Shown: piece after piece, positions 1,230 through 45,205 of the stretch
How positions within the stretch are numbered: position 1 is the first letter of the stretch
Layout: every line of letters starts with the position of its first letter
Assembly (NCBI GenBank): GCA_951406725.2
Contig: OX597814.1
Span: 172,484,001 to 172,548,000, forward strand
Reading direction: 5' to 3'
Length of the DNA stretch: 64,000 nt
From: Octopus vulgaris
Taxonomy: Eukaryota
Translations under genes and position numbers: made by a program
Notes under the pieces: model-generated
What the model saw: the letters and a program-made list of their open reading frames with translations, nothing else
Databases searched by the model: none
Told to the model about the DNA's origin: nothing

Positions 1230-1885
1230 TTAGATTGGGACAAACAGAGGGAGAAATTGGTTCATCTCAAGGAAGGAAGAGAGCGTATTCACTTTATCGT
1301 TGATATCTAGCCTAAATATTCCGCCGATATGCATGATATTTGACACAAACAAATCCCAGTTCGGTGAAGCGTGCAATTAGCACTAGATGAATAGGTTGAG
1401 TGCAGTTGGGTGGAACGTATCCACCGACAACCATCTCGGCGATTATTTTTCAAAAAGATATCGCCGTAATGAATTTTAAGGCAGGGTTTCCCCCTGCCCT
1501 TACAACAACAATAGTAATATCAACGAAAAGCAACTGTAACAACGAAATAAAGGTTCAACCCATTGGCCTCTTTCTAATTTTATGAAAGAAACTGTTGATT
1601 CGGTAAAGATTTATATCAAATGCAGCGCGTAAACGACGTTATTAGATAGAGACGGTTATATCAAAAACGGTATCTGATGTGTTTAATTATAACTCCTTGG
1701 TAATGTGTGTGTGTGTGTGTGTGGTGAATGTGTTCGCATATTTCTCGATATAATATATGTATACATGTATGTAAGCATATATATTCAAACACACACATAA
1801 TTATTAGTATTTATATGTGTGTGTGAATACATGATTGTACTTGCGTCTGTGCAAGAAGAAAAAATGTAATTCACGAAAATGTATA

Positions 1886-1994
1886 TAGACTACAGCTGTC
1901 GTTTCGACCCATTTTGCATCGGTCCCTCGGAGGTGAGATACTATACAACTAGTTACTGTGCATCCTTGTGCAGGTGTGTCTCATCAGGTGACTA
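1886..1994 (-). ncRNA. Type I hammerhead ribozyme motif, partly degenerate
   Basis: Minus strand reads tagtcac CTGATGA gacac...gggtc GAAAC gacagctGTA gtcta; stem II gac/gtc; stems I and III imperfect. Confidence 0.65.
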
Positions 1995-2247
1995 TTCAAA
2001 AGGTACCTCTCTCAATAGACACGGTTTCGTTTAGTTCAATTATATATGCGTGTGCACACTCATATATTGCATCCCCAACCAAACTTCGAAACTAATAAGT
2101 TTTTTAAAAATCTGTGATAAGACTGTGCATCATCATTAATGAACTTTGGAAAACTGTTCACAACCTATATCTGCCTCTAATGGAACTATCTCCAATATTT
2201 CATGAGTATAACCTCACCCACTAAGATGTCTAGAGAACTCAAATGTA

Positions 2248-2338
2248 TTTTAGCTGATGAGTACAGGACACTTTTATCTGCTGCAATTTTTGCAACTTGT
2301 AATAAAGCCTGTCTTTGTATGAAACAATTGTACTAAAA
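2248..2338 (+). ncRNA. Type I hammerhead ribozyme, apparently intact
   Basis: Stem I ttttag/ctaaaa; CTGATGA at 2254; stem II gtacaggaca/tgtctttgtat; GAAAC at 2321; palindromic stem III ACAATTGT; GUA cleavage triplet 2330-2332; (TA)n starts about 30 nt downstream. Confidence 0.88.
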
Positions 2339-2366
2339 ACCAATCCATTCTTGTTGCTTCTTTCTC

Positions 2367-2406
<40 letters not shown>

Positions 2407-2412
2407 AAAATG

Positions 2413-2522
2413 TTTGAAAATGCAAAGGTCTTTTAGAGATGTTTATTGACTTGACCGGTTTCACTTTTTAGAAAAACCGGTCAAGTCAATATACCTCTCT
2501 AAAAGACCTTTGCATTTTCAAA
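2413..2522. repeat. Fold-back palindrome (~50-bp arms) between (TA)n arrays, carrying only the 3' half of a hammerhead
   Basis: tttgaaaatgcaaaggtcttttagaga...gacttgaccggttt is the reverse complement of aaaccggtcaagtc...tctctaaaagacctttgcattttcaaa; minus strand has GAAACCGGTC (ACCGGT palindrome then C17). Confidence 0.9.
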
Positions 2523-2574
2523 CCTTCTTTTATTTATATTCTTTCTCGTGCGGTTCCTTACAACTTTACTTTGT

Positions 2575-2650
<76 letters not shown>

Positions 2651-2770
2651 CGTGTGCGTGGTAAACAAAGGTATATACTCACGGACAAGCACACGCACAC
2701 ACATATACATGTATGTATATATGTATGCATGTATATGTATATACAGATATATATATACACATATATATAC

Positions 2771-2828
<58 letters not shown>

Positions 2829-3031
2829 GAGTGTAATAGATGAGTGTTAACCTTGTTAACAATTAACACGGAAAAAATAAATAAATAGTTACCAGGGTAG
2901 CAAAAATCTCACAAGTAAAGGTGTTGTAACTCCTTGTTTATAAAGGTAGAAACTTCGTGTTTACGTTGAATATTTTGAATAATATATGAATAAGTAAATG
3001 GAGTTTAACGCAGGTGTAATCAAATATTTTT

Positions 3032-3117
3032 ACTTTCGACACATGCTTCGAAAATTCCACTGATACTATTCAAAAGAATAAATGGTATAAACAATGCAAT
3101 CTTCTCCTCAGGAAAGT
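3032..3117 (-). ncRNA. Hammerhead ribozyme mirror copy with GAAAC changed to GAAGC
   Basis: Reverse complement of 3204-3289 except gcttcg for gtttcg, which alters A15.1. Confidence 0.75.
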
Positions 3118-3203
3118 GAAAAAAACGAAACTCGTCAAAAAGACATTTTAGCAAAATAAGACATTTTTGCTAAAATGTCTTATTGACGAGTTTCGTTTTT
3201 TTC

Positions 3204-3289
3204 ACTTTCCTGAGGAGAAGATTGCATTGTTTATACCATTTATTCTTTTGAATAGTATCAGTGGAATTTTCGAAACATGTGTCGAAAGT
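3204..3289 (+). ncRNA. Type I hammerhead ribozyme, apparently intact
   Basis: Stem I actttc/gaaagt; CTGAGGA 3210-3216; stem II gaagatt/aattttc; GAAAC 3272; stem III ACATGTGT; GUC 3281-3283. Confidence 0.88.
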
Positions 3290-3334
3290 AAAAATATTTG
3301 ATTACACCTGCGTTAAACTCCATTTATTTATTCA

Positions 3335-3365
<31 letters not shown>

Positions 3366-3467
3366 TCGGGGTGAGTACTTGATAATTATAAGCACCTGTG
3401 TATACCGTTTGGTGGTGTAGGTGGTGGAGTAAATTGATCAAAATAAAAACATGATGCCAAGGATTCA

Positions 3468-3545
3468 GCGGTACATATGTTTCGGGCCTTTATTAGACAG
3501 ATTTATAACAATGCATAATGTATGTCTGTGGCCTTCTTCAGCCAC
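3468..3545 (-). ncRNA. Type I hammerhead ribozyme (left-arm copy)
   Basis: gtgg CTGAAGA aggcc...ggccc GAAAC atat GTA ccgc; stem I with one G-U wobble. Confidence 0.8.
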
Positions 3546-3802
3546 GCACAACAGCTTCCACAAGGACATGTGTTACATCAAAAATTCTTGGTTGGGGATG
3601 CAAATCCTCTCATTCGCGTACGACATAATGCGGCAACAGCATAGAATTGAAGCGTCCATCTCTTTCTTCTACATTGAGAGAAGAAAGAGATGGACGCTTC
3701 AATTCTATGCTGTTGCCGCATTATGTCGTACGCGAATGAGAGGATTTGCATCCCCAACCAAGAATTTTGATGTAACACATGTCCTTGTGGAAGCTGTTGT
3801 GC

Positions 3803-3880
3803 GCGGCTGAAGAAGGCCACAGACATACATTATGCATTGTTATAAATCTGTCTAATAAAGGCCCGAAACATATGTACCGC
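3803..3880 (+). ncRNA. Type I hammerhead ribozyme (right-arm copy)
   Basis: Stem I gcgg/ccgc; CTGAAGA 3807-3813; stem II ggcc/ggcc extended by acaga/tctgt; GAAAC 3865; palindromic ACATATGT; GUA 3874-3876. Confidence 0.85.
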
Positions 3881-3937
3881 TGAATCCTTGGCATCATGTT
3901 TTTATTTTGATCAATTTATATATATTTATATGTATAT

Positions 3938-4229
3938 ATGAACACAATTGCAGCGTGGAAGGTGTTTGTAAGCCATTTAAGAAACACACAAAAGCCGTTC
4001 GATTCACTTCAACATTTAAGTTTAATTTGTTAAAATATTTTCGTCGCTTTAAGACCGCGATCTGTTCACTGACAAAAATCCGTGCTGCATCTTGTCAGTG
4101 AACATTTCGCGGTCTTAAAGCGACGAAAATATTTTAACAAATTAAACTTAAATGTTGAAGTGAATCGAACGGCTTTTGTGTGTTTCTTAAATGGCTTACA
4201 AATACCTTCCACGCTGCAATTGTTTTCAT
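3938..4229. mobile_element. Palindromic island (arms 3938-4075 / 4092-4229) with a variant-core hammerhead on each arm
   Basis: ~138-bp inverted repeat with few mismatches, 16-nt loop, TA-rich left flank. Confidence 0.92.
4092..4140 (+). ncRNA. Minimal hammerhead-like motif with G3-C8 core (GUGAACA); mirror at 4026-4075 on minus
   Basis: ttgtca GTGAACA tt tcgc ggtcttaaa gcga c GAAA atattt taacaa: stem I with one mismatch, stem II tcgc/gcga, AATATT palindrome. Confidence 0.6.
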
Positions 4230-4301
4230 TTCAGCACACGATCTCAAATCAAATCACTTGCTATGCAGGTACATCTCCATAATAGGTATATATGTATGTA
4301 T

Positions 4302-4650
4302 GCGGCGAACTGGCAGAAACGTTAGCACGCCGGGCGAAATGCTTAGCGGTATTTCGTCTACGTTACGTTGTGAGTTCAAATTCCGCCGAGGTCGACTTTG
4401 CCTTTCATCCTTTCGGGAAAGGCGGCGAGCTGGCAGAAACGTTAGCACGCCGGGCGAAATGCTTAGCGGTATTTCGTCTGCGTTACGTTGTGAGTTCAAA
4501 TTCCACCGAGGTCGACTTTGCCTTTCATCCTTTCGGGGTCGATAAATTAAGTACCAGTTACGCACTGGGGTCGATGGAATCGACTTAATACCTATGTCTG
4601 TCCTTGTTTGTCCCCTCTGTGTTTAGCCCCTTGTGGGTAATAAAGAAATA
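4302..4650 (+). mobile_element. SINE group A, tandem partial (4302-4419) plus full copy (4421-4650)
   Basis: Head repeated twice; flanked by the direct repeat ataggtatatatgtatgtatg. Confidence 0.9.
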
Positions 4651-31735: not shown

Positions 31736-31740
31736 TGGGT

Positions 31741-32115
31741 GCTTTTTATGTGGCACCATTACCAGTGCGCTTTTTAGGTGGCACCAACACCAGTAGTTTT
31801 TACATGGCACAATTACAAGTACTTTTTAAGTGGGACCATCACTAGTGATTTTTACGTGGTATCAACATCATTGCTTTTTACTTGGCACCATCACCAGTGC
31901 TCTTTACATAACACCATTACCAGTGCTTTTCATGCGGCACAATCACGAGTACTTTTTTATATGGCACAATTACAAGTACTTTTTACATGTCACCATCATC
32001 AGTGATTTTTATGTGACACCATCACCAGTGCTTTCTATGCGGCACCATCAGCAGTGCTTTTTATGAGGCACAATCAGCAGTGTTTTTTTTTTACGTGGAA
32101 CATTCACCAGTGCTT
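31741..32115. repeat. Degenerate 26-bp minisatellite, ~14 units (consensus CTTTTTAYGTGGCACCATCACCAGTG)
   Basis: Units counted by eye, head-to-tail without spacers. Confidence 0.9.
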
Positions 32116-33071
32116 TGAAATAGAATAAACGCTACGACCAAAATACTTTTGAGTTTGAATATTCAAGGAATATACCTGTTGACTTTATTATTTCAACAGT
32201 AAGTGAAACAAAGAATTTATCGATTTATCATATTTAATTTCCGGATGACCGAGTCGCATGTGTGTCTATCGGACAAGAAGCCAGAAGGTTGGTAATTTAT
32301 TATTCTGTCAGCCGAGCTTCACTTGGTCCATATCTGGGGGACTTATTTCTCAATAGATTGTTGTTCTTGTTACTACTACTGCTGTTTCTGTTGCTTAGGT
32401 GCAGGTCAATCTTGATGGAGCAGACTTCTGATCAAATTCACTCCAGTTTTAACCATTGTTTCTCTTTCATATCAGGGAGGCGCTATCTTGTCAACTATCA
32501 ATCGTTTTTAAACGGAGTTTTTTTTTCTGGGGATATTTTGGCTGGTGTTTCTACCAGGCCAAGTAACCACACAGGAAAAGCTAGATGCACATATGTTCAT
32601 ACATAGACAAGACAGATGTACATATGTACCCCGAATTGGAATAGTCCACTGCTTATGCAATACCCTCTCTGTAGAATTAGTTGGGGTTTTTAATCTTTGA
32701 TTAGCCTTGATCACATCTTTTCTTCGGTATAATGTACTTTGGACTACTAAAACATCCAGTATGTCCTTCCCTGTTTAAGATGTTAGAGTGTAAGATAAGT
32801 AAGATTTGGTTGCTATGTCTAGTAGATCAAGTCTCTACAGAGAGACTTCCTAGGCGGCTAGAAGGATTTCTTGTCTTATAATCTGGAATATTGTTTATGA
32901 CTATATTATAATCATAAGCATACATACATATATGGATGCCGCTGATTAAGAAAGTGGAGTAACTGACTCCTTCAGATGGATCAAGAGAAAAAAAGACTTT
33001 TAAATAATAAATCTTAACACAGGCACTAATTCAAACCAGCCAATGTTTCTTCGTGTTATTTTTATTATTGA

Positions 33072-45105: not shown

Positions 45106-45205
45106 TCTACGGACGCACGTTTCGAAATCAAGTTTTTAGGAAAGCATAAGAATTAAATATTAAATAATTCTACGTTACCCAAACTTCTTTTCTCTTCAGC
45201 GTAGA
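45106..45205 (-). ncRNA. Type I hammerhead ribozyme, apparently intact
   Basis: Minus: tctacg CTGAAGA gaaa...tttc GAAAC gtgc GTC cgtaga; 6-bp stem I; the island runs to (TA)n at 44915. Confidence 0.87.

What the first reader, a model, noticed from the sequence alone, without database searches (positions are those of the whole stretch)
1850..4230. Ribozyme hotspot: six different islands, four of them palindromes, within 2.4 kb
Seen: hammerheads at 1886-1994(-) and 2248-2338(+), then palindromes at 2413, 2982, 3430 and 3938, separated mostly by TA/TG runs, giving eight full or variant ribozyme motifs plus a half motif. Inference: serial insertion into one TA array, where each event leaves or duplicates TA target and makes a self-reinforcing landing pad.
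Basis: partly seen in the sequence, partly recalled or inferred. Interest (0 to 1): 0.78.

Follow-up and report, generated by a model that had tools for sequence, protein, structure and literature searches.

The report
Pile-up of Penelope-like retroelement ends
Six different Penelope-like jumping elements, or relatives of them, have left their ribozyme-bearing ends next to one another in a TA-repeat patch of a likely octopus genome; this is an unusually dense case of a known insertion pattern, but one family carries a hammerhead-like motif with a swapped core pair that is untested for cleavage.

Summary
Six unrelated repeat families lie in 1856-4281, four as head-to-head palindromes, all hammerhead-type in origin. 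They are 5'-truncated 3' ends (pLTRs) of Penelope-like elements (PLEs). B, D and E trace to RT + GIY-YIG parents with Hydra-clade motifs, F to a Neptune/Nematis-type parent, A to a Hydra-like fragment at one locus only; C's parent was not found. TA targeting, inverted partners and one-sided tails are all published PLE traits. Only 4 of 8 full motifs are intact. Identity to family copies runs from 75-80% to over 99%, which fits serial insertion. Clustering is real but moderate: 0 of 400 background bins hold 3 or more palindromes, and other islands are about 3-fold enriched near PLE ends, with no excess per TA array. Feedback is therefore unproven. Two additions. First, 65 of 73 head-to-head pairs have one tailed and one tail-less arm and none has two tails, which suggests twin priming on one RNA. 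Second, family F's only hammerhead-like motif has a G3:C8-swapped core (G3 in 82 of 84 copies, C8 in 79). I found no natural G3:C8 case in the papers I could read; one key paper was not held.

The parts
1856..2049 (-). Island A: old 3' end of a PLE-type family; decayed type I hammerhead at 1888-1991 (CUGAUGA core; U16.1C and a broken stem I against family copies)
   Evidence: Hydra-like endonuclease fragment 1.2 kb upstream in L112 only
2085..2367 (+). Island B: young, tail-less, unpaired 3' end of a Hydra-clade PLE; intact hammerhead at 2248-2338
   Evidence: (98.7% to parent L186)
2368..2404 (.). (TA)18 shared by the B and C ends
2405..2575 (.). Island C: head-to-head pair; right arm has a 42-nt tail; both arms are cut 5' of the core, leaving half motifs at 2446-2462(-) and 2474-2489(+); the family core is the known U3:A8 variant
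   Evidence: parent ORF not found
2576..2821 (.). Compound TA/TG/CA microsatellite
2822..3339 (.). Island D: head-to-head pair of a Hydra-like PLE; left arm has a ~150-nt tail (from 2822); hammerhead 3204-3289(+) intact, 3032-3117(-) has A15.1G; 7-nt filler at the joint
3334..3360 (.). (TA)13 shared by the D and E ends
3361..3918 (.). Island E: head-to-head pair of a Hydra-clade PLE; left arm has a ~70-nt tail (3361-3429); hammerheads 3468-3545(-) and 3803-3880(+) with a family-wide A.C mismatch at 10.1-11.1; 4-nt microhomology at the joint
3915..3940 (.). Imperfect TA run between E and F
3938..4281 (.). Island F: head-to-head pair of a Neptune/Nematis-type PLE; right arm has a 58-nt tail (4230-4281); G3:C8-swapped hammerhead-like motifs at 4026-4075(-) and 4092-4141(+), both damaged in these copies

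Best explanation
The region is a pile-up of truncated, ribozyme-bearing 3' ends from six repeat families, four traced to Penelope-like retroelement parents and two likely so, that were likely inserted one after another into a TA-microsatellite patch. Shown: family membership, the RT + GIY-YIG parents of B, D, E and F, TA-flanked ends, head-to-head geometry, and one tail per pair. Inferred mechanism of each palindrome: the element's endonuclease nicks both strands of (TA)n. Each 3'-OH primes reverse transcription, most likely on the same RNA, one at the tail end and one at a fixed upstream AT-rich site. Both cDNAs abort after 50-1300 nt and are joined by 1-4 nt microhomology or short filler. 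That would give exactly one tailed and one tail-less arm. Inferred cause of the cluster: each insertion splits a TA array and leaves TA on both sides, so the patch stays a target for later families; true feedback through TA gain is about even odds. The hammerheads are likely inert passengers, because a transcript across a palindrome is predicted to fold into one long hairpin.
For: Parents: L186 (B) has a 941-codon frame with RWK, DKT, a CxCX5C linker, GIY-YIG and CxxC, and sister copies give the CxH end; E and D parents are similar. These are the Hydra features in PMC8557442 section 11. L382 (F) has an open RT frame, a CX3CxxC linker and Pfam GIY-YIG above cut-off, and its 3' UTR ends in island F sequence. 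78 of 80 B/D/E ends are at (TA)n. Of 73 pairs, 65 are tail + tail-less, 5 tail + short, 3 lack a tail and 0 have two tails; in B/D/E, whose queries did not include the tail, 36 of 38 are mixed. In 17 of 33 joints the tail-less arm reaches further 5' (7 with no overlap), which excludes fold-back from the tailed arm; in 6 of 33 both arms stop within 10 nt of each other. Arms share non-majority variants 3-9 times more than shuffled pairs. Joints: 14 microhomology, 4 blunt, 15 filler. A purified PLE protein cuts and extends both strands and starts at two internal sites that delimit the tail (PMC11167929). Palindrome D folds as one hairpin, -277 kcal/mol.
Against: C has no parent ORF, and A is linked to one by a single locus. 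D's parent shows no CxCX5C linker. Clades were assigned by motifs and by eye, with no tree. Pfam RVT_1 on the B parent is below cut-off, and the 941-aa frame had no Pfam or PDB match. PMC11167929 saw no difference in start site between strands, so the strict asymmetry is not shown in vitro. Palindromes per TA array are not higher near PLE ends (30/629 against 73/1095). About 45 bins with 4 or more palindromes are expected per genome by chance alone. Sampled copies are the best-scoring 30 per search, not a random draw. No empty allele and no long read was seen.
Confidence: 0.88

Rival explanations
1. The identity is the same but there is no feedback: the cluster is the upper tail of passive insertion into an already TA-rich patch, picked out by scanning many windows.
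For: No excess of palindromes per TA array. About 45 such bins are expected under Poisson. The six families were defined from this window, which inflates the six-family P value.
Against: Enrichment falls with distance: 23 against 8.5 within 700 nt, 7 against 9.8 beyond. TA summed over both sides of a pair has a median of 37 units, while 19 of 1540 background arrays reach 37. This fits TA gain at insertion, or a strong preference for long arrays.
Confidence: 0.45
2. The palindromes are assembly or library fold-back artefacts.
For: No contig from four runs spans a palindrome.
Against: Arms differ (3/159, 1/224, 3/119 and 3/44 nt in the window) and across the genome differ nearly as much as random copies. 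Arm ends fall at two fixed family sites. The 73 pairs lie on many contigs.
Confidence: 0.02
3. The palindromes are MITEs or fold-back DNA transposons with terminal inverted repeats.
For: Short palindromes in TA context resemble TA-targeting MITEs (recalled).
Against: Inner ends vary from copy to copy, most copies are single-armed, and the outer ends are unequal. Upstream sequence runs into RT + GIY-YIG frames.
Confidence: 0.02
4. The region is a selected, host-functional ribozyme or hairpin-RNA locus, or a retrozyme array.
For: Four motifs are intact. Retrozyme-like tandem arrays exist elsewhere in this genome (L228, L243).
Against: Intact motifs are simply those of the youngest families, and older ones have decayed. 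There are no tandem monomers here. Paired motifs lie on opposite strands.
Confidence: 0.04

Closest known systems
Hydra-clade Penelope-like elements (Craig et al. 2021, PMC8557442; includes Hydra-1_Obim from Octopus bimaculoides)
   Same: C-terminal GIY-YIG, RWK and DKT motifs, CxCX5C linker, CxxC/CxH, hammerhead in the pLTR, (TA)n targeting, inverted 5'-truncated partner, tail at one end.
   Different: The paper found few Hydra families outside cnidarians. Here at least three young families have over 1000 first-look candidates each, tails of 70-150 nt against 30-40, and long stem II loops. D lacks a visible linker motif.
Neptune/Nematis PLEs
   Same: F parent: CX2-5CxxC linker, C-terminal GIY-YIG, pLTR with tail, partial microsatellite bias (11 of 29 ends at TA).
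   Different: The pLTR motif has G3:C8 in place of C3:G8, an extra G and a predicted UUU cleavage triplet. Neptune and Nematis were not separated by a tree.
Minimal type I hammerheads of metazoan PLEs (Cervera and de la Pena 2014, PMC4209133)
   Same: Palindromic stem III, an extra nucleotide between 9 and 10.1, the U3:A8 covariant (family C), and pairs 100-700 bp apart on opposite strands.
   Different: G3:C8 is not mentioned in the two parts read. Six families in 2.4 kb is denser than any background bin.
Poseidon PAc in vitro system (Frangieh et al. 2024, PMC11167929)
   Same: Both strands cut and extended, AT-rich target, two internal RT start sites bounding the tail; the engineered C3G/G8C double mutant is partly active.
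   Different: It reports no strand bias in start sites, whereas genomic pairs here are almost always one of each.
L1 twin priming (recalled, not read)
   Same: Two target primers on one RNA give an inverted 5' part.
   Different: Here both start sites are fixed and the 3'-primed cDNA often reads through the second site, which makes a palindrome.
Non-LTR retrozymes (bioRxiv 10.64898/2026.07.22.740005, part 1 of 5 read)
   Same: Type I hammerheads related to PLE pLTRs.
   Different: Retrozymes are tandem direct repeats; these islands are single or inverted truncated ends.

Membership tests
PLE, Hydra clade (islands B, D, E) | Single ORF with RT and C-terminal GIY-YIG upstream of the pLTR | tested here: met
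   (L186, L181/L183/L196, L190/L191); frames of E and D are broken in the copies seen; RVT_1 E=0.00027, below cut-off
PLE, Hydra clade (islands B, D, E) | RWK and DKT motifs | tested here: met
   B has RIRWK and DKTG; E has KIRWT and DKTG; D has DKTG, its N-terminus was not seen
PLE, Hydra clade (islands B, D, E) | CxCX5C linker; CxxC and CxH; no CCHH | tested here: inconclusive
   Met in B and E; D has CxxC and CxH but no linker motif
PLE, Hydra clade (islands B, D, E) | (TA)n insertion preference | tested here: met
   25/25, 28/28 and 25/27 ends
PLE, Hydra clade (islands B, D, E) | Placement in the Hydra clade by RT phylogeny | not tested
   Compared by eye only with the Hydra alignment in the supplement of PMC8557442
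PLE, general | pLTR partial tandem, with the tail matching the sequence that leads into the next ORF | tested here: met
   L186 and L183
PLE, general | Inverted 5'-truncated partner; tail at one end | tested here: met
   70 of 73 pairs have exactly one tailed arm
PLE, general (islands A, C) | Link to an RT-EN ORF | tested here: inconclusive
   A: one locus with an endonuclease fragment; C: no tblastn hit with Hydra-type queries in 58 loci
PLE, Neptune/Nematis (island F) | CX2-5CxxC linker and C-terminal GIY-YIG | tested here: met
   L382: CQSNCAVC; PF01541 26.8 bits, cut-off 22.6
PLE, Neptune/Nematis (island F) | Clade placement by phylogeny | not tested
Type I hammerhead ribozyme | CUGANGA/GAAA core with stems I-III and NUH site | tested here: met
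   B, D right arm and both E arms; E has A.C at 10.1-11.1 in 30 of 30 copies
Type I hammerhead ribozyme (family F motif) | Canonical C3:G8 core | tested here: not met
   G3 in 82/84 and C8 in 79/84 copies; stems I and II form in the predicted fold of intact copies, z -2.7 and -3.2
Type I hammerhead ribozyme | Self-cleavage | not testable with these tools
   Needs an in vitro assay
Non-LTR retrozyme | Tandem direct monomers, each with a hammerhead | tested here: not met
MITE / TIR DNA transposon | Fixed terminal inverted repeats at both ends | tested here: not met
   Unequal outer ends, variable inner ends, mostly single-armed copies

The most novel reading that the evidence does not exclude
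An autonomous, abundant octopus Penelope-like family (F) naturally carries an active hammerhead with a G3:C8-swapped core, the third Watson-Crick solution at this pair, which would show selection for ribozyme function in PLEs. In addition, PLE palindromes form by twin priming of one RNA at two fixed sites, with net TA gain that makes self-feeding landing pads.
Probability: 0.25. Interest if true: 0.6.

Novelty: new member of a known kind. Interest (0 to 1): 0.36.

Why it matters
As a 'ribozyme hotspot' it is ordinary PLE debris, unusually dense. It still gives handles on open PLE questions that PMC8557442 lists as unresolved: how the inverted structures and tails form, and what the hammerhead does. 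The 0-of-73 two-tail count and the arm-length pattern constrain the integration mechanism and can be tested in the existing in vitro system. A compensatory G3:C8 swap kept in an autonomous family would argue that the ribozyme fold is under selection, although cleavage was dispensable for insertion in vitro. Standard CUGANGA and UUGANAA searches miss this motif, so ribozyme counts in such genomes are likely too low.

Tried and rejected
Rfam: no hit at gathering score; sub-threshold miRNA and snoRNA hits reflect hairpins and microsatellites. Pfam and PDB searches on the Hydra-type ORFs gave little. The parent search for C found a longer non-coding 5' extension but no ORF; the tblastn queries were Hydra-type only. 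A's upstream walk gave one locus. Sequencing runs: no RNA holder listed, so nothing on expression. Contigs of X1 and X3 bridge A's 3' junction and contigs of X1 and X2 bridge its 5' end; one of these runs may be the source of the window. X1 reaches only 29 letters into B, short of the tool's 31. No palindrome, empty allele or polymorphism was resolved, and the raw-read run X21 gave 7 reads. My count of hammerheads inside background palindromes used a faulty pattern that missed known cases and was discarded. Gene conversion between arms was rejected as a general process because arms diverge nearly as much as random copies; window F has one private variant on both arms. Fold-back from the tailed arm was rejected for 17 of 33 joints. 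Earlier scan notes: nothing. Lunse et al. 2017 and Przybilski and Hammann 2007 were not held, so the G3:C8 novelty is not checked against them.

Full report
Setting. The window is G000:C1:172484001-172548000 of a 2.8-Gb genome in 227 contigs. The closest named homolog of one element protein is labelled Octopus vulgaris, so the host is likely an octopus. The window holds no convincing long ORF; the 11 frames of 150 aa or more are mostly microsatellite translations.

Observation. Four inverted repeats of 94-98% identity lie at 2409-2526, 2982-3339, 3430-3918 and 3938-4229. A type I hammerhead descriptor finds four strict motifs in the region and one more at 45106-45205, against 0.07 per shuffled window. 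Four more motifs are damaged or variant, and island C holds only 3' halves. The islands do not match one another apart from one 16-nt stretch. Seven other palindromes lie elsewhere in the 64 kb (one search adds an eighth), so palindromes as such are common here.

Each island is a dispersed family. First-look candidates, which are lower bounds and not copy numbers: A 440, B 1130, C 561, D 2204, E 1622, F 1454. Identity to the best copies is 73-83% (A), 99% (B), 83-92% (C), 99% (D), 99-100% (E) and 95-96% (F). The likely order is A, C, F, then B/D/E.

Parents. Copies with long 5' extensions lead into RT + GIY-YIG frames. For B, L186 has an upstream pLTR, a 941-codon frame, a 3' UTR and a downstream pLTR; the frame breaks near its C-terminal end, which sister copies supply. 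It carries RWK, DKT, CxCX5C, CxxC and CxH, the Hydra-clade features in section 11 of PMC8557442. E's parent has the same motifs (RWT for RWK); D's lacks a visible linker. That paper's supplement already lists Hydra-1_Obim from an octopus with (TA)n preference. For F, L288 is a broken copy and L382 part of a 1025-codon open frame with a CX3CxxC linker and Pfam GIY-YIG above cut-off, whose 3' UTR ends in island F sequence. This is the Neptune/Nematis design. A has a Hydra-like endonuclease fragment upstream in one locus; C has no parent so far.

Palindrome anatomy. In all four window palindromes the elements' 3' ends point outward and the truncated 5' ends meet in the middle. Every family has two fixed 3' ends, 42-150 nt apart; the stretch between them, the tail, is the sequence that leads into the next ORF in tandem copies. 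Among 73 head-to-head pairs (69 from loci, 4 from the window; duplicate loci dropped), 65 have one tailed and one tail-less arm, 5 a tailed and a shorter arm, 3 no tail, and none two tails; a further 89 copies were single. The query for C and one query for F included tail, so B/D/E are the cleaner test: 36 of 38 mixed. Of 33 resolved joints, 14 show 1-4 nt microhomology, 4 are blunt and 15 have filler; 32 have TA on both sides. In 17 of 33 the tail-less arm reaches further 5' than the tailed arm, 7 of them with no overlap, so those cannot be fold-back copies; in 6 both arms end within 10 nt. Arms differ at 0.7-8% of sites, only slightly less than shuffled pairs (no less in E), but share rare variants 3-9 times more often. 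This argues against an assembly artefact and for one coupled event.

Mechanism (inferred). PMC11167929 (parts 1-2 of 4 read) shows a PLE protein cutting and extending both strands of AT-rich DNA from two internal RNA start sites that bound the tail, with a predicted dimer. The simplest reading of the strict asymmetry is twin priming on one RNA, one primer per site. That paper saw no strand bias, and PMC8557442 (passages and section 11 read) suggests endonuclease resolution for the tail, so this step is not proven. A search for twin priming with Penelope listed two papers, neither on PLE mechanism by title (listing only).

Is it a hotspot? In 1 Mb of background (100 stretches of 10 kb at round coordinates) there are 73 palindromes, and none of 400 bins of 2.5 kb has three or more; 35 of 73 abut TA, against 11% for random intervals. 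One 20-member cluster among them may be inverted SINE pairs (not checked). Poisson gives P of 4e-5 for four or more, about 45 bins per genome. Around 167 family loci, islands of the other five families number 19 against 5.6 expected. Other palindromes within 700 nt of the 3' end number 23 against 8.5, with no excess beyond. TA arrays are also 2.3-fold denser there (counting each locus's own array), and per array there is no excess. TA beside young ends is long: median 18 units on one side and 37 summed, against a background median of 6 (14 length-weighted). Clustering is real; whether insertion adds TA needs empty alleles, which the contig data could not give. A review (PMC6765202, passages) already says PLEs tend to insert into or next to existing copies.

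Ribozymes. B and D have canonical cores. E has an A.C mismatch at the base of stem II in 30 of 30 copies. Family C uses U3:A8, a known natural variant. Family F's only hammerhead-like motif has a 7-8 bp stem I, core GUGAACA, one extra G, a 5-bp stem II, GAAA, a palindromic stem III and a UUU triplet. G3 is in 82 of 84 and C8 in 79 of 84 copies (copies of one young family, not independent evidence of selection). It is kept in the open-frame copy L382 with a different loop II. Intact copies fold into the hammerhead shape as their lowest-energy structure (z -2.7, -3.2), while the two window copies do not (z +0.6, -1.5). All 43 strict G3:C8 hits in 2.0 Mb of loci belong to F. The engineered C3G/G8C swap is partly active. 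Searches for a natural case and passages of PMC3088659, PMC3884650 and PMC4209133 showed none, but Lunse et al. 2017 on PLE hammerhead variants was not held, and figures and most supplements were not seen. PMC13282606 on O. vulgaris repeats reports recently active Penelope families and never mentions hammerheads in its main text (passages). Palindrome D is predicted to fold as one hairpin that buries both motifs, so the ribozymes here are likely inert.

Verdict. A real and unusually dense cluster of a known kind of object. Interest lies in two by-products: the near-obligate one-tail rule and the G3:C8 motif of family F.

Noticed in passing
window 45106-45205 (-): Another strict type I hammerhead (CUGAAGA core), probably a seventh PLE family end.
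   Followed up: no
window 13745, 14570, 19912, 26294, 26870, 34655, 44382: Seven more palindromes of 73-94% identity, several TA-flanked; likely further PLE-type head-to-head insertions.
   Followed up: partly
window 2050-2084: Filler between A's and B's 5' ends holds a 16-nt exact match to family E, possibly a cross-family template jump; E about 0.01 in the window, so it may be chance.
   Followed up: partly
L228:2272-4548 and L243:8632-9035: Retrozyme-like tandem arrays of about 360-nt units with compact hammerheads; L228 has five sense and two antisense units, L243 uses the U3:A8 core.
   Followed up: no
L186:3200-3267: The full-length B element begins in the TA run at the 3' end of a D-related element, another case of PLE next to PLE.
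   Followed up: no
G000, table: Family F's endonuclease has 150 scored matches among 6102 candidates, many with the same score and open frames up to 1025 codons; several minus/plus pairs 1-2.5 kb apart suggest a recently active family with long head-to-head insertions.
   Followed up: partly
window 4302-4537: Tandem 120-nt duplication in the head of a very abundant SINE-like repeat, about 20 nt from F's tail.
   Followed up: no
window 31739-32116: 26-nt minisatellite of about 13 copies.
   Followed up: no
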